From contig JAGWOD010000001.1 of assembly GCA_028871115.1 (NCBI GenBank), positions 4,736-68,735 of the forward strand: a DNA stretch of 64,000 nt, written 5' to 3'. The notes under the pieces are model-generated. The model searched no databases, was not told the origin of the DNA, and was given only the letters and a program-made list of their open reading frames with translations. Of the stretch, positions 24,438 through 44,208 are shown in pieces. Every line of letters begins with the position of its first letter. Positions within the stretch are counted from its first letter, which is position 1. The position numbers and the translations under genes are program-made. Source of the stretch: Patescibacteria group bacterium. Its GTDB lineage: Bacteria; Patescibacteriota; Minisyncoccia; Phycocordibacterales; SBAW01.

Positions 24438-25352
24438 ATGGCAAACAGGCACCTCTCACGCTCAGTCGTACTCCAGGCCCTTTTCGAGTGGGATTTTAAG
24501 TCTCTCACTAAAGAACAGGCGCAGGCGTGTCTTTCTCGTATTACCTCTGAATTTGCCTCCGGTGCCGCAGATACGGCGTTTATGGAAGAGCTCCTTGGAG
24601 GTGTTCTTTCTCGTCGGGGTGATCTCGATCTCGTTATTGAAAAGGCTGCTCCTGAGTGGCCACTTGAGCGCATTTCTCCTGTTGATCGGAATATTCTTAG
24701 GCTCGGCCTCTACGAGCTTCTTTTTTCTGATCGAAACAAAGTACCTGCCAAAGTTGCCATCAATGAAGCGATAGAGCTCGGTAAAGCCTATGGAGGTGAA
24801 AATAGTGGCCGCTTCGTTAACGGTGTTCTTGGCGCGGTGTACAAGGAGCTCGGAGAGCCAGGTAAAGATGAGGTTGGCAAAAGGCGCAAAGACATTCCGT
24901 ACGACCAGATGCCGGTGGAGTATCTCGGCGGAGCGGTAGTCTTTGCGCACCACCAAGGTGATGTCTATCTCGCGCTGGTGCACGATATCTTTGGCCACTG
25001 GACGCTTTCCAAAGGACGCATTGAACAAGGAGAGAATCTCGAGGAGGGGACGATACGGGAGATTAAAGAGGAAATAGGACTTTCTATAAAGATACTTTCC
25101 TCACTCGGAGAAAATGAGTACGTAGCAAGTGATCCAAAAGCTGGGAAAAAACGCAAACACGTCGCGTATTTCCTCGCGGAATCGCCTTTTGTCGATGTAA
25201 AGCTCGAAGAAGAAAAGGGGGGCCTCGACGAAGCCCGCTGGTTTCGTCTCAAAGATGCCCTTGAACTTAATTTCTACGAGGACATCCTGCCTATTGTCAC
25301 GAAAGCAGTACAGAATCTTACCGAAGGTTCAAAGAAGAAACATAAGAAATAA
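24438..25352 (+). CDS. nusB: NusB (transcription antitermination factor) fused to a C-terminal Nudix hydrolase domain
   Basis: Residues 1 to ~140 are NusB (RSVVLQALFEWDF...AINEAIELGKAYGGENSGRFVNGVLGAVYKE). Residues ~165-304 carry a Nudix box (GHWTLSKGRIEQGENLEEGTIREIKEEIGL). Confidence 0.8.
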   Translation: MANRHLSRSVVLQALFEWDFKSLTKEQAQACLSRITSEFASGAADTAFMEELLGGVLSRRGDLDLVIEKAAPEWPLERISPVDRNILRLGLYELLFSDRNKVPAKVAINEAIELGKAYGGENSGRFVNGVLGAVYKELGEPGKDEVGKRRKDIPYDQMPVEYLGGAVVFAHHQGDVYLALVHDIFGHWTLSKGRIEQGENLEEGTIREIKEEIGLSIKILSSLGENEYVASDPKAGKKRKHVAYFLAESPFVDVKLEEEKGGLDEARWFRLKDALELNFYEDILPIVTKAVQNLTEGSKKKHKK

Positions 25353-25353
25353 A

Positions 25354-26052
25354 ATGAGTGAGAAAAATTTCAGCGAATTCGCTCAAAAACTCAACCTAGT
25401 ATTTAAAGACGAAAGTCTCCTGCGACTTGCGTTTACCCATCGTTCATACCTCAATGAGCATCGTGAAGAGGCTCATCGCGGCCACAATGAGCGGCTTGAA
25501 TTCTTGGGTGATGCGGTGCTCGAACTTACCTCAACGCGCTTTCTCTACGATCGGTTTCCAACCCATCAGGAAGGCGATCTTACTGCCTATCGAGCGGCGC
25601 TCGTGAACGCTAATACGCTTTCGGAAGTTGCGGCACGCATTGGTATGAACGATTACCTCCTTCTCTCCAAGGGTGAAGCAAAGGATCTAGGCCGCGCCCG
25701 CCAGATACTTCTTGCCAATGCTTTTGAAGCTCTTATCGGAGCGGTTTACCTTGATCAGGGATATGACGGAGCCGAGCACTTCCTCTCAAGGTATCTTTTC
25801 CCAAAGATAGATGAGATCGTCAAAAAACGTCTTTGGCAGGATGCAAAGTCTGCCTTCCAGGAAAAAGCTCAGGAGCACGAAGGAGAGACTCCTACCTACG
25901 CTGTACTACGCGAGGAGGGACCGGACCATGACAAACAATTTGTCATGGGAGTATATGTCAGAAACGTGCTTGTGGCTGAAGGAGAGGGTCGTAGTAAGCA
26001 GGAAGCGGAACAAGAGGCCGCACGAGCGGGTCTTGAACGTAAAGGTTGGTAG
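25354..26052 (+). CDS. rnc: Ribonuclease III
   Basis: ERLEFLGDAVLEL signature plus a dsRBD. The ATG at 25354 sits 1 nt after the upstream stop, so the ORF-track extension from 25255 is rejected. Confidence 0.85.
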   Translation: MSEKNFSEFAQKLNLVFKDESLLRLAFTHRSYLNEHREEAHRGHNERLEFLGDAVLELTSTRFLYDRFPTHQEGDLTAYRAALVNANTLSEVAARIGMNDYLLLSKGEAKDLGRARQILLANAFEALIGAVYLDQGYDGAEHFLSRYLFPKIDEIVKKRLWQDAKSAFQEKAQEHEGETPTYAVLREEGPDHDKQFVMGVYVRNVLVAEGEGRSKQEAEQEAARAGLERKGW

Positions 26053-26093
26053 TTTCTCAATACCAGAGGCTTTTTCTTGTTACAATATCGGCA

Positions 26094-28706: not shown

Positions 28707-30676
28707 ACTAAGACGAAATCAATAGTACGTGCGGAGACATCTGCACCAACTAGCTTCACGCGCACTCGGTCTCCGAGTGCGATTTTTTTATTGGTACGGT
28801 CTCCAACAATTGCGTATTCTTTGGGATTGTAGCGATAATAATCGCCTTCAATGCTCGCAACGCGCACAAGTCCTTCACATGCGGTATGTTTCTCCTCCAC
28901 GTACACTCCCCATTCGGTGGTACCCGAAACTGTGCCCTCGAAAATCTCTCCAATTTTGCTCGTCATGAACTCTACTTGCTTATAACGGATGCTGTCGCGC
29001 TCGGCATCTGTTGCTTTCGCTTCTTGCAGAGAGGCGGCGATACACATTTTTTCGAGTGCTCCGTATTCTTTGTGTGTTATCGGTTTGTTGTTGAGATGCG
29101 AGCCAAGGATGCGGTGTACAAGAATATCCGGATATCGGCGGATAGGGGAGGTGAAGTGTGTGTAGTATTCAAATGAGAGTCCGAAATGGCCAATATTTTT
29201 AGTTGAGTAGATCGCTTTTGCCATAGAGCGCAGTGTAGCGGTGCGTATAAGCTGCTCCTCCGGCTTTCCCTCAATGCTATCGAGGAGAACCTGTATATCA
29301 CGGGCGCTGTAGTGCGCACGGCCCTTTTTTACGTGCCCAAATTCATACCCTAGTGCACGCACGAAGACAGCGAGCTCTTCAATCCGGTCCTCTTTAGGTT
29401 GATCGTGGATGCGGTATAGAAAGACGAGTCCATGTTCCGGATTCTTCTGTGCAAGTTTTGAAACATACTGCGCCACTTCACGATTCGCAAGAAGCATAAA
29501 TTCCTCAATGAGTGAATTTGTTTCAAGCCGTTCTTTACGAGTGATCGCCAGAGGACGGCCATGCTCGTCGAGCGTAAAACGGACCTCGTTTTCGCCGAAA
29601 TCGATAGCCCCCTCTCGTTCACGCTCTCTCTTAAGTGTTCTGCCAAGTGAGCGTAGTATTTCAAGTTCCTTGAAATACGGACCCGCTTTCTTAGTAAGTA
29701 CCTCTTGTGCAGCTTCATAGGTAAAGCGCTTATCAGAGCGAATGATAGTTTTTTTGAATTGTCGATCGAGCACTTCCGCTTTTTGATTCAGGCGAAATAT
29801 AGCCGAAAAGGCAAGGCGATCTTCACCTTCCCGTAGGCTACAGACATTACCTGAGAGCTCATTGGGCACCATGGGGATGGTCGTGTCGACTAGATATACC
29901 GAAGTGCCCCGTTTACGGGCTTCAGCGTCAAGCGCTGATCCTTCCTTTACGAAGAACGACGCGTCGGCGATATGGATACCTATTTCAAACTCTCCATTCC
30001 CAAGTTCTTGTACCGAGAGAGCGTCATCGAAATCTTTTGCATCCGGAGGATCAATGGTGAACGTGGGTATGGTGCGGCAGTCAAAACGTTTAGAAGCTTC
30101 CTCTGCAATAATATGTGTGTGATCTTTTTCGATCTGCTGTGCTTCGCGCACAACCTCAGGGAGAAACTGTGTGGAGAAACCATGTTCGAGCACAATGGCA
30201 TTCATTTCGGTACGATGCTCGCCGGCACGTCCAAGAGCCTGAAGCACCTTGCCCTGCGGATCCTCGACACCATTGAAGGAGATAAGCTCAACAAGTATTT
30301 TCTCTCCTTCTTTACCAGTACCGGAATCCTTAAGAAGGATAGGGCGATAGAAACGGACATCATCGGGCAATGCCACCCATTGCCTGCCATTTCTTTTAAG
30401 TGTGCACACGAATGTGTCGCGAGCTCGCGAGATCACTCGGATAATTTTGCCGTGCGGGCGAAGGGGAGCCCGGAGTCCTTTACCACGCCCTGGACGCAGC
30501 TCAATCACCTCGACTTCTACTTCGTCGCCGTTGAGCGCGCCACCGAGAGCCTCAGTGGCAATTTCGATGTCTTCGTGTTCGGGCCACGCGACATAGCCCG
30601 TTCCTTTACGGGTGATCTGAACGATACCGCTTACTCGGGCTTGCCGAGGCGGCCTATTGGTCTTTTCCTTCTGCAT
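28703..30676 (-). CDS. rnr: Ribonuclease R (RNB family 3'-5' exoribonuclease with a C-terminal S1 domain)
   Basis: Cold-shock-like N-terminus, RNB catalytic domain (DIDPPDAKDFDDA) and a C-terminal S1 domain. Confidence 0.85.
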   Translation of the reverse strand: MQKEKTNRPPRQARVSGIVQITRKGTGYVAWPEHEDIEIATEALGGALNGDEVEVEVIELRPGRGKGLRAPLRPHGKIIRVISRARDTFVCTLKRNGRQWVALPDDVRFYRPILLKDSGTGKEGEKILVELISFNGVEDPQGKVLQALGRAGEHRTEMNAIVLEHGFSTQFLPEVVREAQQIEKDHTHIIAEEASKRFDCRTIPTFTIDPPDAKDFDDALSVQELGNGEFEIGIHIADASFFVKEGSALDAEARKRGTSVYLVDTTIPMVPNELSGNVCSLREGEDRLAFSAIFRLNQKAEVLDRQFKKTIIRSDKRFTYEAAQEVLTKKAGPYFKELEILRSLGRTLKREREREGAIDFGENEVRFTLDEHGRPLAITRKERLETNSLIEEFMLLANREVAQYVSKLAQKNPEHGLVFLYRIHDQPKEDRIEELAVFVRALGYEFGHVKKGRAHYSARDIQVLLDSIEGKPEEQLIRTATLRSMAKAIYSTKNIGHFGLSFEYYTHFTSPIRRYPDILVHRILGSHLNNKPITHKEYGALEKMCIAASLQEAKATDAERDSIRYKQVEFMTSKIGEIFEGTVSGTTEWGVYVEEKHTACEGLVRVASIEGDYYRYNPKEYAIVGDRTNKKIALGDRVRVKLVGADVSARTIDFVLV

Positions 30677-30809
30677 AGAGAAAACAGTGCTTCAATGATA
30701 CTACAAAATTTCTTTCCTGACAAATGCAGGAGAGCTGCTTCATTGACCCACGAGCTCTTCTTTGATAAAGTCTTTTTATCCCGCTCACGCGGGATGTTTT
30801 AAACAACAC

Positions 30810-31175
30810 ATGATCACTATTCGACTCCAGCGCCGCGGACGAAAGAACGACCCGAGCTTCCGGGTTATTGTCGTTGACTCCAAGCGCAGTATGAAGACTG
30901 GCAGTTACCTTGAGATGGTGGGGTCATACGATCCTCGGACCGACAGAATCGAGCTTAACGCTGAGCGTATCGCACACTGGATGAGCCATGGTGCCAAGGC
31001 TTCTGATACAGTACACAACCTCCTTGTCTCTCAGAAGATCATCGATGCGAAGAAGATTAACGTACTTCCAAGAAAGACCCCTTCCAAGAAAGAAGAGGCA
31101 CCCGTATCTCTTGAAACTACGGCCCAACCGCCGGCAACTGCCGAAGCTGTGGGCAGTGATGTTGCGCCCCAGTGA
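30810..31175 (+). CDS. rpsP: 30S ribosomal protein S16
   Basis: MITIRLQRRGRKNDPSFRVIVVDSKRS signature. The start is placed at the ATG at 30810. Confidence 0.85.
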   Translation: MITIRLQRRGRKNDPSFRVIVVDSKRSMKTGSYLEMVGSYDPRTDRIELNAERIAHWMSHGAKASDTVHNLLVSQKIIDAKKINVLPRKTPSKKEEAPVSLETTAQPPATAEAVGSDVAPQ

Positions 31176-31222
31176 CCTACTGCTACAATTTCACTAGTTA
31201 TTAATCAACTACATATACTGCA

Positions 31223-31588
31223 ATGGTGGAAAAAGATCAGGAGTTCTTGGAGTTCGTCATCAAAGGTCTTGTCGATCATCCAAACGAGGTAAAAATTAAC
31301 CGTACGGTTGACGAGATGGGTGTTTTGCTGACTCTGGATCTCAATGCGGAAGATATGGGCAAGGTCATCGGTCGTTCAGGCAACACTGCCAAGGCCATCC
31401 GGACTCTTTTGCGAGTCGTAGGGATGAAAAACAATGCCCGTGTGAATCTCAAGATTAACGAGCCAGCAGGAGGTATGCGCAGTGGTGCACCTTCCATGGC
31501 TGAGTATCGCGCTGAGAACCCTGCGCCTTCTCAAAGCCCCGCAATGAAGTCGGTTGATGAAGCTATGGAAGAGTTGGGAAGTTTCTAA
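31223..31588 (+). CDS. KH-domain RNA-binding protein (UPF0109/YlqC-like)
   Basis: KH fold with GKVIGRSGNTAKAIR. This gene has a conserved position after rpsP. Confidence 0.8.
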   Translation: MVEKDQEFLEFVIKGLVDHPNEVKINRTVDEMGVLLTLDLNAEDMGKVIGRSGNTAKAIRTLLRVVGMKNNARVNLKINEPAGGMRSGAPSMAEYRAENPAPSQSPAMKSVDEAMEELGSF

Positions 31589-31612
31589 TTTTAAAAAAAA
31601 GACAGAACTCAA

Positions 31613-31646
31613 AAACCGCGCTACAGTAGTAGCGCGGTTTTTTCTT
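31613..31646 (+). terminator. Strong Rho-independent terminator
   Basis: 11-bp perfect stem AACCGCGCTAC-AGTA-GTAGCGCGGTT followed by TTTTTT. Confidence 0.75.
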
Positions 31647-31677
31647 GTGAAGGGAAAATGCCCCAGACGATAGATAT

Positions 31678-32340
31678 ATGAAAAAGAATTTCCATATCAT
31701 AACTCTTTTTCCTGAAGTAATTGAAAGCTATACAAAGGTATCGATACTTGGACGTGCACAAAAAAATAAGATCCTCTCTGTCAACACTTATCAGCTTCGT
31801 GACTTTGCTCAAAATCGATGGGGGAAAGTAGATGAACGTGCCTATGGTGGAGGCCCGGGTATGATTCTTCGTGCTGAGCCTATAGTTAGAGCAGTTAATG
31901 CAATCCGCAAAAACAAGCCAAGAGCAACAGTGCTCATTATGTCTGCGGGCGGCAAGCCTTTTACGAACGCTCTTGCTCGCGTATACGCAAAAAATCATAA
32001 CGATGTAATAATCGTCTCTGGTCGCTACGAAGGGCTTGATGCGCGGGTGAAGAAAATACTCGGGGCACAGGAGATTTCTGTGGGCCCCTATATTCTTACG
32101 GGGGGAGAGATTCCCGCTCTTGCTGTCATTGATGCGGTGTCACGGCATATTCCTGGGGTGCTCGGAAAATATGAATCTCTCGAAGAAGGAAGAGTTGCTT
32201 CCCATGACGTTTATACCCGCCCCGAAATTCTCCTATATCGGGGCAAGAAATACCGCGTTCCCAAAGTACTCCTATCGGGCCACCATGCAAAAATTGATGA
32301 ACTTCGAGGCCGCAGGCGTAGTCTGGGGAAAAATACTTGA
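31678..32340 (+). CDS. trmD: tRNA (guanine37-N1)-methyltransferase
   Basis: SPOUT/TrmD motifs (IITLFPE, YGGGPGM, SGRYEGLDARV). Confidence 0.9.
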   Translation: MKKNFHIITLFPEVIESYTKVSILGRAQKNKILSVNTYQLRDFAQNRWGKVDERAYGGGPGMILRAEPIVRAVNAIRKNKPRATVLIMSAGGKPFTNALARVYAKNHNDVIIVSGRYEGLDARVKKILGAQEISVGPYILTGGEIPALAVIDAVSRHIPGVLGKYESLEEGRVASHDVYTRPEILLYRGKKYRVPKVLLSGHHAKIDELRGRRRSLGKNT

Positions 32341-32365
32341 CGTACAAGCCCCTTTTGCTATACTG
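32338..32365 (+). promoter_or_regulatory. Near-consensus sigma70 promoter for rpoBC (TTGACG-N16-TGCTATACT), with a ~200-nt untranslated leader
   Basis: ttgacg at 32338-32343 and an extended -10 tgctatact at 32357-32365. The fused rpoBC ATG is at 32570. Confidence 0.6.
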
Positions 32366-32569
32366 GATAGCGAAACAAGGGGGTAAGCGATTGAGTAGTA
32401 GGACTCGCGTTTCAAACAATAGAATAGTGCTTTGAGGTTAAGACCCGAAGCTTATTGAAACAGATAGGCAAGGGCGCTTTGTGCGTCTGCTATTTTCGTG
32501 TTTCTAGGACAACCCCAGTCTTTATTTTCCTGTTTTTAATTATCTATTCATATAACTACGCTACGCCGT

Positions 32570-35500
32570 ATGCGCGAACAAAAATTCTTCAAACGGCATA
32601 ACCCCTCTCGCGTCGCCACTCCCAATCTTGTGGCTGACCAAATCCGCTCCTTCGAGTGGCTCCTCAAGGAGGGCATCCGAGAGACTTTCAAAGAATTTAC
32701 ACCTATCAAAGACTATTCCGGTAAGAAATTCGATCTTGAGTTTTCTAAGATTGAGATCGGCGAGCCGAAATTTGACGAACACTACGCGAAAGACCAGAAA
32801 CTCACCTACGACGCGCCGATACGGGCTATCGTTCGACTCACGAATAAAACATCAGGCGAAAAGAAGGAGCAGGAGATATTTCTTGCGGATATCCCTGTAA
32901 TGACTCCGCACGGCACCTTCATTATAAACGGTGTCGAACGAGTCATTGTGCCGCAGCTTGCTCGCTCCTACGGTGTGTTCTTTACTGCTGAAGAACTTAA
33001 AGGAAAGAAGCATTTTGGTGCAAAGATTATTCCCGCACGCGGTGTTTGGATCGAAATAGAAGCGGATGCCGATGGCATGCTCTCTGTCCGCATCGATCGC
33101 AAGCGCAAGTTTCCAGCTATATCGCTTCTGCGCGTACTGGGTGCTCGTTATGATAGTGACCTCAAATCGCTTTTCAGCCACGCTTCCTATGAGAAACGCT
33201 GGGTAGAAGCTGCAATGGAGAAAGATCCTGCAAAAACTGTTGAAGAGGCTTACATAGAGATACATAAGCGATTGCGCGACGGAGATCTTGCTACTGCAAA
33301 AAATGCGCAAGACTATATAACTGCTCTCTTTAGTGAAGAGCGATACGATCTTTCCCCAGTAGGACGTTTCCGTTTCAACCAGCGCTTTGGAAAGTCATTG
33401 GGCGTTCAAGAACTTACCCGCAAAACCCTCAGTCTCGATGACGTAGTCACCACGCTGCGTCATTTGCTCATGCTCGAAAATACTCCCGACGCGATGGAAG
33501 ATAACATCGATCACCTCGGCTCCCGCCGCGTCCGCTACGTAGGAGAGACACTCCAGAGCCGTGTCCGTGTGGGACTCACTCACATGAAGCGCAACATCCA
33601 GGACCGTATGTCGACCATAGATGCGGAGGCTTCGCTTCCCGTCCAATTCGTCAATCCGCGCCCGCTTCAGGCCCGTATCAAAGAATTCTTCACCACCAAC
33701 CAGCTCTCTCAGTTCATGCAGCAGGAGAATGCACTTGCGGAGCTTGAGCATTTGCGTACCTTCTCAGCTCTTGGCCCTGGCGGTCTTACCCGTGAGCGCG
33801 CAGGTTTTGAGGTGCGCGATGTGCACCCTTCACACTACGGGCGCCTTTGCCCCATTCATACTCCAGAAGGTCCGAACATCGGACTCATTCTGCGTCTTTC
33901 GACGTTCGCACGTCTCAATGAGTTCGGCATGATAGAGACGCCTTACGCGAAAGTGGCCAATGGCACCGTGACGAACGAAATCATATATCTCAACGCTGCA
34001 GAGGAAGAAAATGAAAAGATAGCCCACGGCGCGACAGAACTTCATGGAGACGGCAGAATCGTCGAAGAGATGGTGGAAGTGCGCTTCAAGGGGGCTCCTG
34101 TACGCGTGCCTCGCGCCGAAGTCAAATATACGGATGTTTCTCCTCAACAGCCCTTCTCCATCGCGACATCAATGATTCCGTTTCTTGAGCATGATGATGC
34201 AAACCGAGCGCTCATGGGTTCAAACATGCAGAAACAGGCGATTCCCTGTCTCATTCCTGAAGCTCCGCTTGTTGCCACCGGCATGGAGGAAACTGCAGCA
34301 CATGATACGGGACGCTTAGTATTTGCTCTTGAGGGGGGCACGGTGGCGGAGGTTGATGGACGACACATTTCAGTAAAAAACGATAAAGGAAAAGAGACAA
34401 AATACCCTCTCATCAATTTTGTGCGTACCAACGGGTTCACGGCGCTCCATCATCGCCCTATCGTTTCTGTAGGAGAGAAGGTTAAAAAAGGACAACTTCT
34501 CGCTGATGCTTCCTCCACCGATGGAGGACAGCTTGCACTTGGACAAAACGTCATGGTGGCATTCATGACGTGGTCAGGTGCTAATTACGAGGATGCCATC
34601 ATTATTTCTGAGCGTCTCGTAAAAGACAGCAAATTTTCAACCATCAATATTGAGGAGTTTGTCTGCAACGTACGGGATACGAAGCTCGGAGCCGAGGAGA
34701 CAACGCACGACATACCCAATGTTTCAGAAACGAAGCTCCGTAACCTCGACGAGGAAGGCGTCGTACGCATCGGCTCAGAAGTCCGCCCTGGCGATATATT
34801 GGTTGGCAAGATAACACCCAAAGGCGAAACCCAACTCACGCCGGAAGAGCGGCTGTTGCGATCTATTTTCGGCGAGAAGGCCCGTGACGTGAAGGATTCA
34901 AGCCTCCGTATGGAGAACGGCAAACGAGGCCGGGTTATCGGAGTAAAAGTCTTTTCCCGAGAAGCAGGACATCAGCTTGAATCTGGCATACTCAAGCGCA
35001 TCCATATTGAAGTAGCACAACTGCGAGCGGTCTCCGTAGGAGATAAGCTTGCAGGCCGCCACGGCAACAAGGGCGTCATTTCCCGTATTCTTCCTGAAGA
35101 AGATATGCCCTACACCTCCGATGGTCGACCTGTCGATGTCATTTTGACACCGCTTGGTGTTCCTTCGCGTATGAATCTCGGACAGATTCTCGAGCTCCAT
35201 CTTGGACTCGCGGCCAATACCCTCAAGTACCAGGCAATCTGCCCTCCGTTTGCAGGAGCAACTGAAGAGGAAATTCGCAGCGAACTCAAGCAAGCTGGCT
35301 TCAATGAAAATGGGAAAATGAGGCTCTTTGACGGCCGGACGGGCGAGCAATTTGAACAGGAGATCGCCGTTGGATACATGTATATCCTCAAGCTCCATCA
35401 TATGGTCGAGGATAAGATCCACATGCGCTCTATCGGTCCTTATTCCCTCATCACGCAACAGCCTCTCGGCGGCAAGGCTCAAGGCGGCGGACAGCGCTTT

Positions 35501-38500
35501 GGAGAAATGGAAGTATGGGCACTTCTTGGCTATGGCGCTGCCTATACGCTGCGCGAGATGCTCACGGTGAAATCCGACGACATCATGGGTCGTTCAGCGG
35601 CATTCGACTCTCTTGTGCGCGGGGAACGTATTGCACACCACTACGCTCCAGCATCATTCAACGTGCTCTTGCATACCTTGCGTGGTCTCGCGCTTGATGT
35701 TGAGCTCCTCCGGGGGACTGCACCTATCCGTAGCGGCAAGAAAACTCCTGGAGCAGAGATCGGAGATTTTGACGCAGTGCGTATAAGACCTGCCTCTCCT
35801 GAGAGAATTGGCGAATGGTCCTATGGAGAAGTTACAAAGCCTGAAACTATCAACTACCGCACCCAGCGTCCGGAGAAGAACTCCCTCTTTGATGAGAAGA
35901 TATTCGGGCCTGAGAAAGACTACGAATGCTATTGCGGAAAATATCGAGGCATACGCTACAAGGGCATTGTCTGCGAGAAATGCGGTGTTGAGCTCACTCG
36001 GGCTATTGTGCGTCGCGAGCGTATGGGGCACGTCGATCTCGCAGTCCCTGTCGCGCATGTGTGGTTCTTGCGTGGCATTCCGTCGCGACTCGCCATGACT
36101 CTGGGTATCTCTGCCGCCGATCTTGAAAAGGTCGCCTATTTTGCGGGGTATATCATCATCTCGGTCAATGAAAAGGAACGTGAGCGTATCAGCAAAGAGC
36201 TTGAGAGCGAATACAAGACCAAGCTCAAGGCGCTTCAGGACGAGAAATCGAAGGAGAAGATCAAAGAGCTTTTTCTTGAAGCCAAGCGCGATATCGATGC
36301 ACTGCGGATCGGTACAGTTCTCGACGAGGCTCGATATCACCGCTACGCCATAAAATATGGTGCTGCGTTCGAAGCGGGAATTGGTGCAGAGGCACTTTAC
36401 AATTTCTGCAAAGGCCTCGATCTCAAAATGATGGAGCGTGCTACCGCTAAGGCCTTCGAGGAGGCTGGTTCTGCCGAACGCGAGAAATTGAGCAAACGAC
36501 TCTCACTCATGCGCGGCATGATACGAGCCAACGTGCGTCCCGAATGGATGTTCCTCACCCGCATTCCTATTATTCCGCCGGGCTTGCGCCCCATGGTGGC
36601 ACTTGATGGTGGCCGCCACGCGACCTCGGATGTTAATGATCTTTATCGTCGTGTCATCAATCGCAACAATCGTCTCAAGAAGCTCATAGATATTCATGCG
36701 CCTGATGTAATTCTGCGCAATGAAAAACGAATCCTCCAGGAGGCAGTAGATGCTCTTATTGATAATTCAATCCGCCATGGTGGAGCGGCGTATTCCGCGA
36801 CCACACAGGCTCGCACCCGTCCGCTGAAGTCTCTCTCAGATAACCTCAAAGGCAAGCACGGCCTCTTCCGACAAAACCTTCTCGGCAAGCGAGTCGATTA
36901 CTCTGGCCGATCGGTCATTGTGGTAGGCCCTGAACTCAAACTCAACCAGTGCGGTCTTCCCAAACACATGGCGCTTGAACTCTTCCGTCCCTTTATCATC
37001 GGCAAACTTCTTGAGAGAGAACTTGCCTACAATATTCGTGGTGCTGGACGTCTTATTGATGAAGGGGTACCTGAGGTGTGGGCTATTCTTGAAGATGTCA
37101 TAAAGGATAAGTACGTGCTTCTCAACCGCGCGCCTACCCTCCACCGCTTGGGTATTCAGGCCTTCCAGCCGGTTCTTATTGAAGGCAACGCGATACAGCT
37201 TCACCCGCTTGTATGTCCTGCTTTTAACGCTGACTTCGATGGTGACCAGATGGCAGTACACGTGCCACTTTCGCCTGAAGCACAAGCCGAAGCACGTGAA
37301 ATTATGGCGGCTCCTAAGAACATCCTCAAGCCCGGAGATGGCCAGCCGGTAGTTGCCTCCAAACTTCTCGATATTTTGCTCGGTGCTTATTGGATGACCA
37401 AGGAAGTGGAAAAAGCTAAAGGGGAGGGAATGGCCTTCTCAAGCCCTAATGCTGCCATATTGGCCTACGATTACGGTGCTGTTGGCTTCCAAGCAAAGAT
37501 CAAAGTCCTTCCTTCGGAGAAAGAGAAGTACGCACAGTTTGGGAATTCTCTTTTTGAGACGACCGTAGGACGCCTGCTCTTCAATACGGTATTCCCCTCG
37601 GATTATCCCTATGTAAACGCGGCCATTGATAAGAAAGGCCTTGCTCGGCTCGTTGATGATCTTATCGCCCGGTACGGTCTCGAGAGAATACCTGAGATCA
37701 TGGATCGCATTAAGGCGTTCGGATTTCGCTACGTTACACAGTCGGGTATTACCTGGTCCCTCGACGATATTCGTGTGCCGAAGGAGAAGCGGGAAATTGT
37801 CGCTGCCGCACAGAAGCGATCCGATGAAATCGTCAAACATTGGGAAGAAGGCCTTCTCTCCCAGGAAGAGCGCTACCGCATGAATATTGAGGTCTGGCAC
37901 GCGGCAAAGGCTGAAGTCGAGAAGCTCATACCTGCGACACTTCCAATTAACGGCTCAGTCTCCGACATGTTGCGCTCCGGTGCTCGCGGTTCTATTGCCC
38001 AGGTAACGCAAATGGCGGGCATGAAGGGTCTTATTGCTTCTCCAACTGGCGAGGCTATCGAATTTCCGATCACCACCTCCATGAAAGAGGGTCTTTCGCC
38101 GATTGAATACTTCATTACCACCCACGGCTCTCGAAAAGGACTCACTGATACTGCTCTTCAAACTGCAAAAGCTGGGTATCTCACTCGACGTTTGTTTGAC
38201 GTGGCGCAAGACATTGTCGTAGGGGAGGAAGACTGCGGAACTAGTGAAGGTCTCGCTGTGCGCCGCGAGAGCGCATCAGGAATCGGTACCTTCCTCGCAA
38301 GCAATATTCGAGGACGTTTCCTTGCTGGAGATGTCGCGGACGCGAAGGGCACTATTCTCTTCAAGAAAGGTCATTTTACGACAGCGCCAGATGCAAAAAA
38401 GATTGAGGAATCGGGAGCCCCCTCCGTATATGTTCGCTCCCCAGTCGGATGTAAATCACAACGAGGCATTTGTATTCACTGCTATGGAGCAGATCTTGCA

Positions 38501-39412
38501 ACCTGGGAGCCGGTCTCCCTTGGAGAAGCGGTAGGCACAGTTGCCGCCCAAGCTATCGGTGAACCCGGCACTCAACTCACTATGAACGTCAAGCATGCTG
38601 GCGGTTCAGCGTCGGTCGGAGGCGACATCACCCAGGGTCTCCCTCGTGTTGAGGAGATATTTGAACGCCGCACCCCCCGCAACCCTGCTGCTGTGGCTGC
38701 TGTAGCGGGCGAAGTGATAGAAATACGCGAGGACGGAAAAGAGAAAACCATCGTGGTTCTTCCTGATATTGAGAGCAAAGGAAAAGGCAAGAAGGCCGGT
38801 TCGGTTGAATACCCGGTCAACATACGCCGCACCCCACTTATAAAAATGGGAGATCGAGTCGAACGGGGCCAGCTTCTCACTGACGGATCAGCGGATCTTT
38901 CCGAACTTTTCCAATATGCAGGACGAGAAAAGACACTCGACTATATCTTGCGGGAAGTCTCCCGAATATACGAGCTTCAGGGCGTTACGATATCAGTCAA
39001 ACATATTGAAGTCATTGCTCGTCAGATGTTTAGCCGTATGCGTATAACCGAACCGGGAAATACGGAATTCTCTTCCGGTGATATTGCGGGCGAAGTTGAG
39101 CTCACGGCCGAAAACGCTGAAACGTCCGGTGAAAAAGCCAAAGCAGAGCCTCTCATCATGGGTATTCTCGAAGTCTCGCTTTCTCGTGCGAGCTTCCTCT
39201 CAGCCGCTTCGTTCCAGAACACGACCCGTATGCTCATCAAGGCGTCAGTTTACGGAGCGATAGACTATCTCCATGGCCTCAAAGAGAACGTCATCATCGG
39301 TCGACTTATCCCAGCTGGCACCGGGTACCGGGGTTCGTCGAAATCGGCAATAGTAGCAAAGTACGCACCTATCCCGACTGAAGCTATCCGCAAAGAGCGT
39401 GAAATCGCTTAG
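32570..39412 (+). CDS. rpoBC: Fused DNA-directed RNA polymerase beta-beta' subunit (RpoB-RpoC single polypeptide, 2280 aa)
   Basis: N-terminal ~1045 aa are RpoB (through [13 protein letters not shown]). A short linker (~35711-35765) follows. The RpoC N-terminus then runs in frame ([22 protein letters not shown]...[22 protein letters not shown]...NADFDGD). No stop or frameshift is present. Confidence 0.9.
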
Positions 39413-39507
39413 TCATCTATTTTGATTTCTTGAGCGTACACGGCCCTGTATGAGCGGGGCCGTTTTTAAGTAGCAAAGTTGGGTCAAAATCTATACACTT
39501 ACAGAAT

Positions 39508-41232
39508 ATGGATTCTCCTGTCCATGAAATTAAGGAACGTCTCAATATTGTTGATGTTATAGGTTCATACGTTCAACTTAAAAAAGCTGGACGCAGCTTC
39601 GTTGCTCGCTGTCCGTTCCATAAAGAACGCACGCCTTCTTTTCATGTTTCCCCAGAGCGCGGTACCTACAAGTGTTTCGGCTGTGGGGAAGGAGGTGACA
39701 TATTCACCTTTATCGAAAAGGTAGAAGGTATTGATTTTCCTACGGCGCTTAAACAACTCGCGGAGCGTGCAGGGGTGCAATTGCCCGCACGAGGCTGGCA
39801 GAATACAAGCCCAAAAGAGCAAGAAAAAGAAGAGCGCTTGTATGCAGTGCTCGAGAAGGCAACTTCTTTTTATGAAGAAGAACTTGGGAGGCACAGCAAT
39901 GCAAAGGAGTATATCCTCTCCAGAGGAATACAGGAGAATACTCTAAAAAAATGGAGCATCGGCTATGCTCCGGCAAGCTGGGAATTACTTTCCTTAAAGC
40001 TTCTTGCCACCGGATTTTCCAAGGAAGAGCTTATCGAAGCAGGCCTCTCGGTACCTTCTGAGAAAAAGAGGGGAGAGGTGTTCGATCGATTCCGAGGTCG
40101 TATTATGTTCCCGATTTTTAATACTGAAGGAAAACCGATTGCATTTTCAGGACGATTTTTTGAGAAGGTTCAGGGTTCCCGAGAGGATGGTCCGCCTGCA
40201 AAATATGTCAATTCCCCAGAGACGACGCTTTTCAGAAAATCGAAGGTACTCTACGGGCTCCATATAGCTAAAGAATATATACGCAAAGCGGATTGCATAC
40301 TTCTTGTAGAGGGACAATTCGATGTCGTACTTTCTCATCAAGCGGGTTTGCCCTTTGCGGTGGCTCTCTCGGGTACTGCCCTTACTGAGGAGCATTTGAG
40401 GCTTCTTGGGCGTCTCTCTAAACGTCTTGTGTTAGCTCTTGATGCTGATGAGGCAGGCATCCGCTCGGGCCTCAAGAGTACTGCTATGGCACTTGCTGCT
40501 GGCTTTGACGTAAAAATTCCGATTATAAAAGAGGGTAAAGATCCTGCGGATCTCGCAGCGAAGGATCCGGAACTGCTCCGCTCTGCGGTGCGCACAAGCA
40601 TAGCGGCAATAGAATTTTTTCTCCAAGCTCTTCGCCCTGGGGCAAAAGATGAGCGTGGATATAAGAAACTTGTTGAAAAAGAAATCTTGCCACTCATAGG
40701 GGCTCTTCGAAGCAAAATAGAACAGGAGCATTTTATACAGCTTGTGGCGCAGCGTCTTCTTGTTTCGGAGGATGCAGTACGGGCTGAGATGAAAAAATCA
40801 GCTTCTTCTGTCGTGCAGACTGATGAGTCCCAAGGCGACACCCGTCAGGCAGAGGATGTACAAACGGGGAATATGCACGTGCCCCTGGAGAAATATGCCG
40901 GCATGCTCCTCTTCCGCTTTAATGAGAATTCAGAGATATATAAAAATCTTGAAATATCTCTTGGCAAAGAGCGTTTACTGGCACTAAAAGAACGACTCTC
41001 TCCCAACGCAGAGCGTCTGCGTTTTGAATTCGATATTCTTGGCGAGGATGAAAATATCCAAGCGAGCCTATTACTTGAGGAGATTGCGCGCGTGCTCCTT
41101 GATGAGGAGATTTCCTCTATACAAAAGCTTCTGCGTGCCGCTGAAGTTGAGCGGAAATCTACTGAAGCCCATGAACTTGCTGTGAAGCTAACTTCGCTTG
41201 CGCGGCGCAGAGAAGAACTCCGCCGTTCATAA
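39508..41232 (+). CDS. dnaG: DNA primase
   Basis: CHC2 zinc finger (CPFHKERTPSFHV...CFGCGEGGD) and Toprim (LLVEGQFDV...LDADEAG). Confidence 0.9.
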   Translation: MDSPVHEIKERLNIVDVIGSYVQLKKAGRSFVARCPFHKERTPSFHVSPERGTYKCFGCGEGGDIFTFIEKVEGIDFPTALKQLAERAGVQLPARGWQNTSPKEQEKEERLYAVLEKATSFYEEELGRHSNAKEYILSRGIQENTLKKWSIGYAPASWELLSLKLLATGFSKEELIEAGLSVPSEKKRGEVFDRFRGRIMFPIFNTEGKPIAFSGRFFEKVQGSREDGPPAKYVNSPETTLFRKSKVLYGLHIAKEYIRKADCILLVEGQFDVVLSHQAGLPFAVALSGTALTEEHLRLLGRLSKRLVLALDADEAGIRSGLKSTAMALAAGFDVKIPIIKEGKDPADLAAKDPELLRSAVRTSIAAIEFFLQALRPGAKDERGYKKLVEKEILPLIGALRSKIEQEHFIQLVAQRLLVSEDAVRAEMKKSASSVVQTDESQGDTRQAEDVQTGNMHVPLEKYAGMLLFRFNENSEIYKNLEISLGKERLLALKERLSPNAERLRFEFDILGEDENIQASLLLEEIARVLLDEEISSIQKLLRAAEVERKSTEAHELAVKLTSLARRREELRRS

Positions 41233-41284
41233 TCTCTGCGTTTGCTATACTTCTTCAGAACTGACCCCAGAAGAGGGAGTTGTT

Positions 41285-41626
41285 ATGGTCGATGTGCGGC
41301 GTTTGCGTATCGTGCGGAATGCTCTTCGAGTTGTGAATAAAAAAAAGATGGAGTTGAGTGTTGACGATAGAAAAGTTATCAAAGAATTCATGACAGAAGT
41401 GCTTCCGAAGAATCACTTCTCAGACCATGAATTCCGGACGAAACTCTACCAGCAAACACTTCGCCCTAAGGGCAAGCATCTCATGCGCATCTTTGATCGT
41501 ATGGAGGTGCTTGAACAACAATTGCTCTTGGCTACCCACCCTGCTACCACTCTTTTGAAATGGGACTCAGATATGAGCGCATATGTTAAATGTTGGTGCG
41601 AGTTCTTGCTCGGTACATGGGACTAA
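41285..41626 (+). CDS. Hypothetical protein between dnaG and rpoD
   Basis: GGAG SD and an ATG at 41285. The ORF-track start at 41198 overlaps the dnaG end. No family recognised. Confidence 0.4.
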   Translation: MVDVRRLRIVRNALRVVNKKKMELSVDDRKVIKEFMTEVLPKNHFSDHEFRTKLYQQTLRPKGKHLMRIFDRMEVLEQQLLLATHPATTLLKWDSDMSAYVKCWCEFLLGTWD

Positions 41627-41633
41627 CACACAC

Positions 41634-41665
41634 CCCGTAGCATCTCAGTTGCTGCGGGGTTTTTA
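41634..41665 (+). terminator. Rho-independent terminator
   Basis: CCCCGTAGC...GCTGCGGGG hairpin followed by TTTTT. Confidence 0.5.
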
Positions 41666-41715
41666 TATAGAGAAACTGGATTTTTAATGAGTTTGTGCTA
41701 TAGTACTCTTACGTT

Positions 41716-42984
41716 ATGGCGAAGGGGATGAGGGCTAAAGCCCGTCTACATAAGCGGGCCGGAGCAAGGCGCGCTTCTGCGTCGCGCCTTAAGGCTAAAC
41801 ACTATCGTGCTAATGCGGCCCGACGGCGTACTTCATCTGCTCTCTCGGGAAGGAGTTCGAAGGAGAAGAAATCAACACTCCCAAAAGCCCAGAAGATTGA
41901 TTCAAAGTCCGCACGTCGGCTGGCTGATCAAGGAAAGAAAGCCGAAGCATTGATGGCGCGAGGCCGTGAAAGAGGCTTTGTCACCTACGACGAAATCCTC
42001 AAGGCATTTCCAAATATAGAGACAGACGTTCTCTTCCTTGAGGAATTGTATGAGCGGTTTTCCGCGGCGCATATCGATGTTCTTGAAGGAGGGGGAATGC
42101 TCGAGGTAAAGGAAGAGCCTCTTGATCAAAGCTATGGGCGTAGCGATAGTCAGTACGATTCCATTCAAATGTATCTGCGAGAAATAGGCAGATACCCACT
42201 TCTCTCTGCGAAGGAAGAGAGAGATCTCGCTAAGCGCATCACGGAGGGTGAAATCGAGGCAAAAAATCTCCTTGCTCGAGCAAACTTGCGTCTGGTTGTT
42301 TCTATCGCAAAAAAATATGTTGGTCGAAGTCCCGACCTGACGCTTCTTGACCTCATACAGGAGGGTAATCTCGGTCTTTTCAAAGCGGTTGATAAATTCG
42401 ATTATACGAAGGGATATAAATTTTCTACCTACGCTACCTGGTGGATACGTCAAGCAATTACCCGTGCACTCGCCGATCAGAGCCGCACGATACGCATACC
42501 GGTCCACATGGTTGAGACCATTGCAAAATATAAACAGGTGGCGCGGCGGCTTTCACAGGATCTCGGTAGGGAACCTCTCGCTGAAGAGATTGCGCTTGAG
42601 ATGGGAGTTGACGTCGATAAGATATATCAAATAGAGAAAATTGACCAAGATACCGTATCTCTTGAGAGCCCAGTCGGAAGTGAAGAAGATGACGGGAAAT
42701 CGGTTTTGGGGGACTTCATCAAAGATGACAAAATACTCTCTCCAGACCAGGAAGTAGCCCGTCGAATTCTCACGGATCAAGTACGGGAAATACTGGATGA
42801 TCTTTCGCCTAAAGAGCGGGAGATACTCAAGCTACGACACGGCCTTGAGGATGGTATTTACCACACTCTTGAAGAGGTGGGTAAGAAATTCGGAGTGACT
42901 CGCGAACGCATCCGCCAGATAGAGGCGAAAGCGCTTGAGCGCATCCGCACGCATGATAAGGCAAAAAAGCTTCGCAGCTATTAG
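41716..42984 (+). CDS. rpoD: RNA polymerase sigma factor RpoD (sigma-70)
   Basis: Region 2 ([37 protein letters not shown]) and region 4 ([23 protein letters not shown]). GTGCTATAGT lies 11 nt upstream. Confidence 0.9.
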
Positions 42985-44208
42985 TTAGCGCTGCTCAGTA
43001 AGGTCCCAAATTTTTGCTGCAATATTGCGCGGCCTACCCTCAAACGGCAGGTGATGGTTGTCGAAAAAAGGCATACTGTTGCATTCGATTACTCCACAGC
43101 GCACCTCTCTCCATGAACGGGAGAGATCGGGGCTGATGAAGTCAATTCCAACTACTTCAGCCCGCAGTCTGTCTGAAATCTCCTCGAAGAGGAGAATATT
43201 ATCAGGATGGACTTCATCACTCACATCTTTTGTCGTGCCCCCTACCGACCAATTAATTTTTTGGTGCAGGGTAATCCGCTCTCCAGAGGGAGGAACACTT
43301 TGAGGTGAAAGTGTTTGTCTTTTTAATTCATCGAGCGTCTCTTGAGAAAGTGCGATAGGGGAGAAGTATGGCCCCCGTCGAGCAGGGTGCTCATTTGCTT
43401 TCTCTACGAGCTCTTGTATCGTTTTGTGACCGTCTCCGATAATAGTCGGAGGATCACGACGAATAGTTGCACAAAGCTTCCCGTCGACTAGGGTGGCGCG
43501 ATACACGTGTCCCTCAAGCTCTTCCTCGATGACTACTAAAGGCGAGACCTGCTTTGCGATAGCAAAGGCTTGTTTGAGCTTCTTCTCGTCCGATATATGG
43601 AGGGTCGTGTGTCGCGTGGCCGAACCCACATGAGGTTTTGTGATGACGGGTTTTAGAAGAGTATCGTATATGTGCCGAGCGCTCTTGTAAGAAGAGGCCG
43701 CACCTCCTGCAGCTACTGGAAAGTGGTATGCCTGGAATCTTTTTTTGAGTTCGGCCTTATTATCGATCCACCAGACTGGCCCACGTTTCCGAGTGGATAA
43801 GGGGATTCCTTCAAACGAGCTATGCCGCCCATCTCTAAACTTCACTATGAAAAGATTGCGTGGAAGTCCAAATAATCTGAACTCTTGCATCTCGATTCCG
43901 CGCTCTTTTGCCTCTTCCCATAGTACGCGGTCAAGAAGAAGCGTCTTCTCGTCGGGTGCATCAAGCAAGGTCCCGAGCCCTAGTCGCGCTATTCCTCTGT
44001 AAATGAGCGGCAGGAGCCATTCTGCGTGCAATACACGCTCTCCTATATATCGTCCAATCTCGCTCGGATAGAAGAAAAGAGGACGTGCAAAGCGCTCAAG
44101 CCAGAGGGCAATATAGGTCCCTTTGTGGTATATCGGATCGCTTCCACAATCGGTGCAACGCAGTGCGGAGCCCGATACTTCTTGCATGCTCATAGTATAC
44201 TCGCTCAT
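42985..44208 (-). CDS. ATP-grasp enzyme related to the cyanophycin-synthetase N-terminal domain (standalone)
   Basis: ATP-grasp motifs include ...IIGDGHKTIQELVEKANEHPARRG... and NWSVGGTTKDVSDEVHPDN, which is CphA-N-like. The N-terminus carries a CTDCG motif. Confidence 0.6.
   Translation of the reverse strand: MSEYTMSMQEVSGSALRCTDCGSDPIYHKGTYIALWLERFARPLFFYPSEIGRYIGERVLHAEWLLPLIYRGIARLGLGTLLDAPDEKTLLLDRVLWEEAKERGIEMQEFRLFGLPRNLFIVKFRDGRHSSFEGIPLSTRKRGPVWWIDNKAELKKRFQAYHFPVAAGGAASSYKSARHIYDTLLKPVITKPHVGSATRHTTLHISDEKKLKQAFAIAKQVSPLVVIEEELEGHVYRATLVDGKLCATIRRDPPTIIGDGHKTIQELVEKANEHPARRGPYFSPIALSQETLDELKRQTLSPQSVPPSGERITLHQKINWSVGGTTKDVSDEVHPDNILLFEEISDRLRAEVVGIDFISPDLSRSWREVRCGVIECNSMPFFDNHHLPFEGRPRNIAAKIWDLTEQR

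What the first reader, a model, noticed from the sequence alone, without database searches (positions are those of the whole stretch)
32570..39412. In-frame rpoB-rpoC fusion encoding a single 2280-aa beta-beta' RNA polymerase subunit
The RpoB-like C-terminus (…[13 protein letters not shown]) runs without a stop into a ~18-aa linker ([19 protein letters not shown]) and then the canonical RpoC N-terminus ([22 protein letters not shown]…zinc finger [20 protein letters not shown]). The junction lies at about 35700-35780.

Natural beta-beta' fusions are known in only a few lineages, such as Helicobacter and Wolbachia (established knowledge). Finding one here would be a notable independent case.

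The gene has its own near-consensus promoter at 32338-32365 and a ~200-nt leader. It is also detached from the usual rplKAJL-rpoBC context. The beta part is also compact at about 1045 aa.
Basis: partly seen in the sequence, partly recalled or inferred. Interest (0 to 1): 0.62.

Follow-up and report, generated by a model that had tools for sequence, protein, structure and literature searches.

The report
Fused RNA polymerase beta-beta' gene
In this ultra-small (Patescibacteria/CPR) bacterium the two large catalytic subunits of RNA polymerase are encoded as one continuous 2280-residue protein; the fusion is real and fixed across a whole clade, it is another case of a kind of fusion already known from Helicobacter and Wolbachia, and public annotation often hides it.

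Summary
Window 32570-39412 (+) is one 2280-codon ORF. It holds a complete beta module (aa 1-1047), a 19-aa linker (aa 1048-1066; nt 35711-35767) and a complete beta' module (aa 1067-2280). All catalytic motifs are present.

It is not an assembly error. At least 84 independent 90%-identity clusters from NCBI, JGI, ENA and Logan (77-86% identical) carry the same fusion, with in-frame linker lengths of 17-24 aa. All seven clade-A loci inspected at DNA level are continuous.

An RpoB tree with bootstraps puts this clade next to lineages with separate genes. It is apart from a second fused CPR clade and unrelated to the Helicobacter- and Wolbachia-type families. Fusion has therefore arisen or reverted several times in this bacterial class, and about 20 further fused lineages exist elsewhere.

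The promoter (32337-32364) is conserved in relatives. The rpsP-KH-trmD-rpoBC-dnaG-rpoD context predates the fusion.

NCBI's record of this same sequence lists only a 1217-aa "beta'" that starts at an internal ATC. Similar "separate beta'" entries in relatives are annotation artefacts.

I found no literature report of the fusion in CPR.

Verdict: a real new member of a known kind, of moderate interest.

The parts
32337..32364 (+). Sigma-70-type promoter: -35 TTGACG (32337-32342), 16-nt spacer, TGn-extended -10 TATACT (32359-32364)
   Evidence: It is the best consensus match in 30600-43200 (10 of 12), although the total number of matches there equals chance. TTGAC and GTATACT/GTACAAT are conserved in register in L085-L088 even though the upstream genes differ.
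32365..32569 (+). 5' leader of about 200 nt with conserved blocks (AGCGAAACAAGGGGG; a TGAGT...ACTC hairpin)
   Evidence: The alignment of five clade-A upstream regions shows the blocks. RNAalifold finds small hairpins with weak covariation. No Rfam family matches.
32472..32497 (+). Conserved leader hairpin followed by a T-run (GGGCGC-TTTGT-GCGTCT GCTATTTTCG); a possible attenuator
   Evidence: The scan flags it as terminator-like. Sequence and pairing are conserved in 4-5 of 5 relatives. Function was not tested.
32570..39412 (+). Fused rpoB::rpoC ORF, 2280 aa, about 253 kDa
   Evidence: The start ATGCG(T/C)GAACAAAAATTCTTC is conserved in relatives.
32570..35710 (+). Beta module (aa 1-1047), including GEMEVWA at aa 978-984
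   Evidence: Pfam Rpb2_1,2,3,45,6,7. NCBIfam PRK00405 covers aa 11-1047 over model positions 9-1095 of 1096.
35711..35767 (+). Linker (aa 1048-1066, [19 protein letters not shown]). It consists of a short remnant of the beta C-terminal tail plus the former beta' N-terminal tail (KTPGAE motif).
   Evidence: It is the least conserved segment: 52% pairwise identity against 91-94% in the flanks. Its length varies in frame from 17 to 24 aa in clade A. KNPGAE occurs in the former beta' N-terminal tail MNSNYKNPGAE retained in fused L081/L089, and weakly in the genuinely split L082 (MSTYKNTQPE).
35759..35761 (+). ATC codon (Ile-1064) that NCBI's annotation uses as the 'start' of a stand-alone beta' (MDE2212948.1, 1217 aa)
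   Evidence: P0295 is 100% identical to window aa 1065-2280 and begins M-GDFDAV.
35768..39409 (+). Beta' module (aa 1067-2280): Zn finger at aa 1120-1139 (nt 35927-35986), catalytic NADFDGD at aa 1553-1559 (nt 37226-37246), trigger-loop GEPGTQLTM at aa 1997-2005
   Evidence: Pfam Rpb1_1-5. TIGR02386 covers aa 1070-2254.
39440..39468 (+). Intrinsic-terminator-like hairpin (10-bp stem, 7 GC pairs) plus TTTTT, 28 nt after the stop codon
   Evidence: sequence ACGGCCCTGTATGAGCGGGGCCGTTTTT.
30762..32340 (+). Upstream conserved neighbours rpsP (30762-31175), KH-domain protein (31223-31588), trmD (31678-32340)
   Evidence: NCBIfam. The same order is seen in fused and split relatives.
39508..42984 (+). 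Downstream conserved neighbours dnaG (39508-41232) and rpoD (41716-42984)
   Evidence: NCBIfam. The rpoB(C)-dnaG-rpoD linkage is shared with split L001-L004 and L082.

Best explanation
The ORF is a natural, fixed gene fusion that encodes RNA polymerase beta and beta' as one polypeptide of about 253 kDa.

Both modules are complete and carry the catalytic and structural motifs. They are joined by a short, poorly conserved, Gly/Ala/Arg/Ser/Pro-rich tether. The tether is built from a remnant of the old beta C-terminal tail and the old beta' N-terminal tail.

The fusion most likely arose by loss of the rpoB stop codon and the very short rpoB-rpoC spacer. In a sister lineage, a fused form differs from its 91-92% identical split relative by absence of the 15-aa beta tail, the stop and the 11-nt spacer, and it still keeps the old rpoC ATG in frame.

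In bacterial RNA polymerase the beta C-terminus and the beta' N-terminus lie next to each other. This is established knowledge, and engineered beta-beta' fusions are functional and are used to express M. tuberculosis RNAP. A tether of about 8-20 aa therefore suffices, and the enzyme should work like a normal alpha2-beta-beta'-omega core with an obligatory 1:1 beta:beta' ratio and assembly in cis.

The gene is transcribed from its own conserved sigma-70-type promoter, through a conserved leader of about 200 nt, and ends at a hairpin terminator before dnaG.

Shown here: ORF continuity, module completeness, clade-wide conservation under purifying selection, independent origin, and the conserved promoter.

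Inferred: that the protein stays uncleaved, is active as a fusion, and that the selective value is small or nil.
For: There is a single ORF with complete domains and motifs.

115 of the 120 best database hits are 2198-2668 aa and span both modules. 84 clade-A sequences (the window plus 83 database clusters) are 77-86% identical, all in frame, with linker lengths 17-24 aa.

The nearest relative is 74.5% identical in nucleotides but 86% in protein, which indicates purifying selection.

All 7 clade-A loci inspected at DNA level are continuous: the window, L085-L088, L090 and L091.

The RpoB NJ tree gives clade A monophyletic in 200/200 bootstraps and grouped with split lineages in 200/200. All fused sequences together form a clade in 0/200.

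The fused/split pair L081/L082 shows the deletion of tail, stop and spacer with the ATG retained.

Independent fusions have linkers from 1 to 59 aa between the same anchor points.

The promoter hexamers are conserved in five relatives, and a terminator follows the ORF.

Engineered fused rpoBC is used for Mtb RNAP expression (bioRxiv 10.64898/2026.04.06.716786). Natural fusions are reported for Helicobacteraceae and Wolbachia (PMC7483510, citing Lane & Darst 2010 and Zakharova 1999; PMC1557499).
Against: There is no expression, proteomic or read-level evidence for this genome.

The AlphaFold model of the junction fragment was too poor to say anything about the linker (mean pLDDT 40).

NCBI's annotation of the same sequence lists a separate beta', and 69 of 84 clade members have a Met at the beta/linker boundary. 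Some internal initiation therefore cannot be formally excluded in those members. The window itself has CTC (Leu) at that position.

The phylogeny is neighbour-joining on the beta part only.
Confidence: 0.88

Rival explanations
1. Assembly or sequencing artefact: a spurious indel or base error removed the rpoB stop and merged two genes in this contig only.
For: It is a single metagenome-derived sequence and read support could not be examined. NCBI's record lists a separate beta'.
Against: The same in-frame junction occurs in at least 84 independent 90%-identity clusters from four data sources. Linker lengths differ by whole codons. Six other clade-A DNA loci are also continuous. The NCBI 'beta'' starts at a non-canonical ATC inside the open frame and has no upstream stop.
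Confidence: 0.01
2. One ORF, two proteins: beta' is also, or mainly, made separately by internal translation initiation near the junction, as public annotation implies, or the polyprotein is cleaved in the linker. The mature enzyme would then have separate subunits.
For: 69 of 84 clade-A sequences have Met at the last beta position (DVEL-M), and pipelines pick it as a start. The linker is variable and rich in Gly/Ala/Arg/Ser/Pro, so it is plausibly exposed.
Against: Beta has no stop codon, so free beta cannot be produced by termination. The putative internal starts are not conserved. The window has CTC at column 1047. At the position of the ancestral rpoC start the five clade-A loci inspected (window, L085-L088) have ATC, ATC, GTG, ATG and GAC, with no consistent Shine-Dalgarno-like motif. 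From my own knowledge, not verified here, the H. pylori fusion is made and used as one polypeptide.
Confidence: 0.08
3. A single ancient fusion at the base of a large part of Paceibacteria, followed by several secondary fissions. On this view the window's fusion is homologous to that of the second fused CPR clade (Ryanbacteria-like) and is not an independent event.
For: Fused forms are scattered over the class: clade A, P0088/L081, P0089 and clade C. A fused and a split form coexist at 91-92% identity, so state changes are easy in at least one direction.
Against: The linkers of clades A and C are unrelated in sequence and length (about 19 aa against about 10 aa). Split lineages sit between them with 200/200 support for the A-plus-split grouping, and 0/200 for monophyly of all fused forms. 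The L081 junction keeps the rpoC ATG, which points to fusion as the derived state. Fission needs a new stop, a new start and translation signals.
Confidence: 0.1

Closest known systems
Helicobacteraceae RpoBC (H. pylori / Wolinella fused beta-beta', about 2890 aa; NCBIfam NF007172 / PRK09603; Zakharova et al. 1999)
   Same: The gene order beta then beta' in one ORF is the same, and the junction lies at the beta C-terminus and beta' N-terminus. It is fixed in a clade and absent from neighbouring lineages (PMC1557499).
   Different: The origin is independent. The window protein scores 2081 bits against a cut-off of 5372 and branches within CPR in the RpoB tree. It is about 600 aa shorter because it lacks lineage-specific insertions. 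The linker is unrelated, the gene context is different, and the phylum is different.
Wolbachia fused beta-beta' (about 2839 aa; NCBIfam NF011417 / PRK14844; Lane & Darst 2010)
   Same: It has the same architecture in a bacterium with a reduced genome and a host-associated lifestyle.
   Different: The window protein scores 1958 bits against a cut-off of 4632. The lineage and the linker are unrelated.
Engineered beta::beta' fusions (E. coli, Severinov et al. 1997, from my own knowledge; M. tuberculosis rpoBC expression construct pMP61)
   Same: A short tether between the beta C-terminus and the beta' N-terminus gives an assembling, active enzyme. This supports the mechanistic reading.
   Different: These fusions are artificial. 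The one described here is natural and has been maintained over long evolutionary time.
Second fused CPR clade (includes 'Candidatus Ryanbacteria' RIFCSPLOWO2_01_FULL_48, P0096; L008) and Candidatus Desantisbacteria (P0120/P0140, UniRef 'Multifunctional fusion protein')
   Same: The architecture is the same. These cases are present in databases, and no mention of them turned up in my literature searches.
   Different: They are about 53% and 47% identical to the window protein. Their linkers differ (about 10 aa and about 30 aa). They sit at a separate position in the tree.

Membership tests
Bacterial RNAP beta subunit (RpoB; NCBIfam NF001616 / TIGR02013) | Full-length match above the curated cut-off | tested here: met
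   PRK00405 scores 1438.8 bits against cut-off 896, covering aa 11-1047 over model positions 9-1095 of 1096. TIGR02013 scores 1426.6 against 801.
Bacterial RNAP beta' subunit (RpoC; TIGR02386) | Full-length match above the cut-off, plus the catalytic NADFDGD motif and the N-terminal Zn finger | tested here: met
   The score is 1452.4 bits against cut-off 963.5, covering aa 1070-2254. NADFDGD is at aa 1553-1559 and CxCGK...CxxCG at aa 1120-1139.
Natural beta-beta' fusion (the kind) | One uninterrupted ORF in the order beta then beta', joined at the beta C-terminus and beta' N-terminus, and conserved in relatives | tested here: met
   All 7 clade-A DNA loci are continuous.
Natural beta-beta' fusion (the kind) | Produced and used as a single polypeptide | not testable with these tools
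   This needs proteomics or biochemistry. Indirect support only: there is no stop codon for beta and no conserved internal start.
Helicobacter-type fused beta/beta' (NCBIfam NF007172, equivalog) | Score at or above the curated cut-off of 5372 bits | tested here: not met
   2081.1 bits.
Wolbachia-type fused beta/beta' (NCBIfam NF011417, equivalog) | Score at or above the curated cut-off of 4632 bits | tested here: not met
   1957.8 bits.
Classical rplKAJL-rpoBC operon | rplK-rplA-rplJ-rplL immediately upstream of rpoB | tested here: not met
   tblastn finds none of them in the window or in 14 CPR loci. The positive control found them in non-CPR loci.

The most novel reading that the evidence does not exclude
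Beta-beta' fusion may not be a rare curiosity of two lineages. It may be a recurrent feature, fixed in several clades, of large parts of the CPR class Paceibacteria and of about 20 other uncultured lineages. Annotation pipelines that force separate rpoB and rpoC calls would have hidden it.

In ultra-small cells with few polymerase molecules, the fusion could be selected because it guarantees 1:1 stoichiometry and chaperone-independent assembly of the core enzyme. The conserved leader hairpin with its T-run could be a new attenuator that controls polymerase dosage.
Probability: 0.15. Interest if true: 0.55.

Novelty: new member of a known kind. Interest (0 to 1): 0.38.

Why it matters
1. It adds a large, deeply sampled clade, and evidence of repeated origins, to a phenomenon that the literature treats as a rare event of Helicobacteraceae and Wolbachia.

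2. It gives a clean rare-genomic-change marker for subdividing Paceibacteria.

3. It exposes a systematic annotation problem. In this genome and several relatives, NCBI records list a truncated 'beta'' that starts inside the fused frame, and no beta product is on record. This can distort marker-gene sets, pangenomes and completeness estimates.

4. The compact 253-kDa single-chain core is a convenient natural template for recombinant CPR RNA polymerase.

It does not change our understanding of how RNA polymerase works.

Tried and rejected
1. The genome-contig scan with a junction-spanning query was swamped by universal RNAP motifs. It returned no close relatives and served only as a panel of split loci.

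2. rpoB and rpoC appeared to be in the same frame in 70 of 70 split loci. I rejected this as an ascertainment artefact, because tblastn ranking with a junction-spanning query favours in-frame loci. L082, found by another route, is out of frame. All it shows is that single-stop, in-frame arrangements exist (31 loci).

3. Internal translation start for beta'. The codon at the ancestral start position is ATC, ATC, GTG, ATG and GAC in the five clade-A loci inspected. The window has CTC at the Met-1047 column. No conserved SD-like motif is present. Rejected for the window.

4. 'Separate beta'' proteins at 78-100% identity (P0295, P0296, P0302, P0128). These are annotation artefacts, because the DNA is continuous.

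5. The AlphaFold2 model of aa 880-1200 with a 16-sequence alignment had mean pLDDT 40 and was uninformative. No fold search was run.

6. No solved structure has a chain spanning the junction.

7. Rfam finds no family in the leader.

8. Eight literature searches found no report of the fusion in CPR/Patescibacteria. Lane & Darst 2010 and Zakharova 1999 are not held in the library.
Full report
OBSERVATION

The window contains one ORF at 32570..39412 (+) of 2280 codons. The junction reads ...[13 protein letters not shown] | [19 protein letters not shown] | [22 protein letters not shown]..., with no stop in frame.

Pfam places the seven Rpb2 (beta) domains at aa 19-1047 and the five Rpb1 (beta') domains at aa 1067-2165. 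The NCBIfam equivalogs for RpoB and RpoC are both passed. PRK00405 scores 1438.8 bits against a cut-off of 896 and covers aa 11-1047. TIGR02386 scores 1452.4 bits against 963.5 and covers aa 1070-2254.

The functional motifs are intact:
- GEMEVWA at aa 978-984
- the Zn finger at aa 1120-1139
- NADFDGD at aa 1553-1559
- the trigger-loop GEPGTQLTM at aa 1997-2005

The predicted mass is about 253 kDa.

NOT AN ARTEFACT

A search of 5.8 billion protein clusters with the whole protein returned 120 best hits. Of these, 115 are 2198-2668 aa and span both modules at 98-100% coverage. They come from NCBI, JGI, ENA and Logan assemblies.

Eighty-four sequences form the window's own group, clade A: the window plus 83 database clusters at 77-86% identity. 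In this group the linker is always in frame, while its length varies between 17 and 24 aa (60 of 84 have 19). Pairwise identity is 52% in the linker against 91-94% in the 60-aa flanks.

The nearest relative is 74.5% identical in DNA but 86% in protein, which indicates purifying selection on the whole frame. Four clade-A contigs that I fetched (L085-L088) are continuous at the DNA level.

THE APPARENT COUNTER-EVIDENCE AND ITS RESOLUTION

A second search with only the beta' part found stand-alone 'beta'' proteins of 1217-1246 aa at 78-100% identity.

One of them is P0295 = MDE2212948.1, from a 72-kb contig of a 'Patescibacteria group bacterium'. It is 100% identical to window aa 1065-2280 but begins M-GDFDAV. 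The deposited annotation therefore starts a CDS at the window's Ile-1064 codon (ATC, nt 35759-35761), inside the open frame. The window's 2280-aa product is not in the 15-billion-sequence collection at all.

Most of the others begin at the Met of 'DVEL-M-RGG...'. I fetched the DNA for two of them, the 'Adlerbacteria' MCX6819703.1 (L090) and the 'Kaiserbacteria' MSR70628.1 (L091). Each carries one stop-to-stop frame, of 2303 and 2295 codons, and no beta product is on record upstream. The same applies to P0128/L089 in the sister group.

For Adlerbacteria, the same 90% cluster holds a 1238-aa and a 2283-aa version. These 'split' entries are annotation artefacts. The fusion is real, and it is frequently hidden in public records.

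PHYLOGENETIC EXTENT

Genuinely split rpoB/rpoC, with stop codons, occur in other CPR genomes:
- L001, 'Zambryskiibacteriota'
- L004, 'Nomurabacteria'
- L002, L003, L005, L006 and L007
- L082-L084

I built a neighbour-joining tree of the beta part (1025 columns, 85 sequences) and ran 200 bootstraps on the 42-taxon CPR subset. The results:
- Clade A is monophyletic in 200/200.
- Clade A groups with the split lineages L001-L004/P0125 and with the fused P0088 and P0089 in 200/200.
- The second fused CPR clade is separate. It contains 'Ryanbacteria' P0096, L008 and the 50%-representative P0145, is about 53% identical to the window, and has a linker of about 10 aa. It is next to split RpoBs in 142/200.
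- All fused sequences together form a clade in 0/200.

There were therefore at least three or four changes of state within Paceibacteria.

In the exhaustive 50%-representative library, 21 of the top 150 hits to a junction-spanning query are longer than 2000 aa (2031-2836 aa). Six of these were tested, and all fall below the cut-offs of both NCBIfam fused equivalogs. Candidatus Desantisbacteria is one named example.

The window protein itself fails both fused equivalogs: Helicobacter-type 2081 bits against 5372, and Wolbachia-type 1958 against 4632. Its fusion is therefore independent of the textbook cases.

HOW THE FUSION AROSE

In the sister group, the split L082 and the fused L081 are 91-92% identical in protein.
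- The split form ends beta with ...DVELKKDAESKEKKIASDKNI*, has an 11-nt spacer, and starts beta' with MSTYKNTQPE...
- The fused form reads ...DVELKKKK-MNSNYKNPGAETDQF...

The fused form lacks the tail, the stop and the spacer, and it keeps the old ATG in frame.

The conserved second half of the window's linker (R/K-K-T-P-G-A-E) aligns with that former beta' N-terminal tail. Many split loci have rpoC open in the rpoB frame behind a single stop codon, 31 in my panel, so one substitution can be enough. The 70/70 in-frame figure is an ascertainment artefact of how those loci were ranked, and I make no frequency claim from it.

HOW IT WORKS

Independent fusions use linkers of 1 to 59 aa between the same anchor residues. 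This fits the established proximity of the beta C-terminus and the beta' N-terminus in bacterial RNA polymerase. It also fits the functionality of engineered fusions, such as the fused rpoBC construct used for M. tuberculosis RNAP.

I therefore read the product as a single-chain beta-beta' that assembles with alpha2, and omega if present, into an ordinary core enzyme.

An internal start for beta' is not supported. The window has CTC at the Met-1047 column. The position of the ancestral start is ATC, ATC, GTG, ATG and GAC in the five clade-A loci inspected, and there is no consistent SD-like motif. Free beta cannot be made without a stop codon. Cleavage in the linker cannot be excluded computationally. 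The AlphaFold model of the junction fragment was uninformative (mean pLDDT 40), and no solved chain spans such a junction.

EXPRESSION SIGNALS AND CONTEXT

TTGACG-16-TATACT with a TGn extension (32337-32364) is the best promoter-like site nearby. The total count of such sites equals chance. Its -35 and -10 hexamers are conserved in register in four relatives whose upstream genes differ, which is good comparative support.

The leader of about 200 nt has conserved blocks. One is a hairpin plus T-run at 32472-32497 that could be an attenuator. Covariation is weak with five sequences, and there is no Rfam match. A strong hairpin terminator follows the stop codon at 39440-39468.

The neighbourhood is RNase R(-), rpsP, KH, trmD, rpoBC, dnaG, rpoD. 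It is conserved in clade A, and apart from the split itself it is also conserved in the split relatives. rplKAJL, nusG and secE are absent from the window and from all CPR loci examined.

Compact RpoBs of 1067-1083 aa also occur in split relatives. Context and compactness are therefore lineage traits that predate the fusion.

LITERATURE

Eight full-text searches found no mention of a fused rpoBC in CPR, Patescibacteria or Parcubacteria. Papers name only Helicobacteraceae and Wolbachia and call the event rare (PMC7483510; PMC1557499). The primary sources, Lane & Darst 2010 and Zakharova 1999, were not available. The library lacks most subscription-journal papers, so absence of a report is not proven.

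VERDICT

This is a real, clade-wide natural beta-beta' fusion in a Kaiserbacteria/Adlerbacteria-like lineage of Paceibacteria; those taxon names are the submitters'. Its origin is independent of the known cases. It is mechanistically ordinary, seemingly unreported, and partly masked by annotation.

It is a new member of a known kind, and I rate the interest at 0.38.

Noticed in passing
window 35759-35761; NCBI protein MDE2212948.1 (P0295): The public record of this same sequence annotates a 1217-aa 'beta'' that starts at an internal ATC codon of the fused frame. The 2280-aa product is absent from the 15-billion-protein collection. Relatives show the same artefact (L089, L090, L091), and one Adlerbacteria cluster holds both 1238-aa and 2283-aa versions.
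   Followed up: yes
window 32365-32569, especially 32472-32497: The rpoBC leader of about 200 nt is conserved. It contains a hairpin plus T-run (GGGCGCTTTGTGCGTCTGCTATTTTCG) shared with L085-L088, which could be a transcription attenuator. No Rfam family matches, and covariation is weak with only five sequences.
   Followed up: partly
window 24438-25352 (+): A single 304-aa ORF combines NusB (aa 7-136) and a NUDIX hydrolase domain (aa 182-282), which may be a second gene fusion in this genome. In relative L087 a stand-alone NUDIX gene lies between KH and trmD. The ORF also overlaps the next ORF (RNase III, 25255-26052) by about 100 nt.
   Followed up: no
L081 / L089 (fused) versus L082-L084 (split): Within one 90%-identity protein cluster, with 91-92% amino-acid identity, both a genuinely fused and a genuinely split rpoB/rpoC exist. 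The fused form keeps the old rpoC ATG in frame. This is a recent natural fusion event that could serve as an experimental comparison pair.
   Followed up: yes
P0148, P0149, P0151, P0152, P0157, P0193 (50%-identity representatives); P0120/P0140 (Candidatus Desantisbacteria): 21 of the top 150 50%-identity representatives are longer than 2000 aa (2031-2836 aa). The six tested fall below the cut-offs of both NCBIfam fused equivalogs. Beta-beta' fusions therefore exist in many unnamed lineages beyond Helicobacter and Wolbachia.
   Followed up: partly
window 39508-42984 and loci L001-L004, L081-L091: rpoB(C) is directly followed by dnaG-rpoD, the core of the classical macromolecular-synthesis operon, throughout this part of Paceibacteria. 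The large RNAP subunits, primase and the primary sigma factor are thus linked in one neighbourhood.
   Followed up: partly
L086 2735-4634, L087 2534-4596, L088 4033-4624: Variable small or unknown genes are inserted between trmD and rpoBC in relatives. The promoter and leader stay attached to rpoBC, which is consistent with an autonomous transcription unit.
   Followed up: partly
window 8212-8976, 26046-28334: Several housekeeping proteins look unusually short: PheS 254 aa and an SMC-like protein 762 aa. This is in line with general protein compaction in this genome.
   Followed up: no
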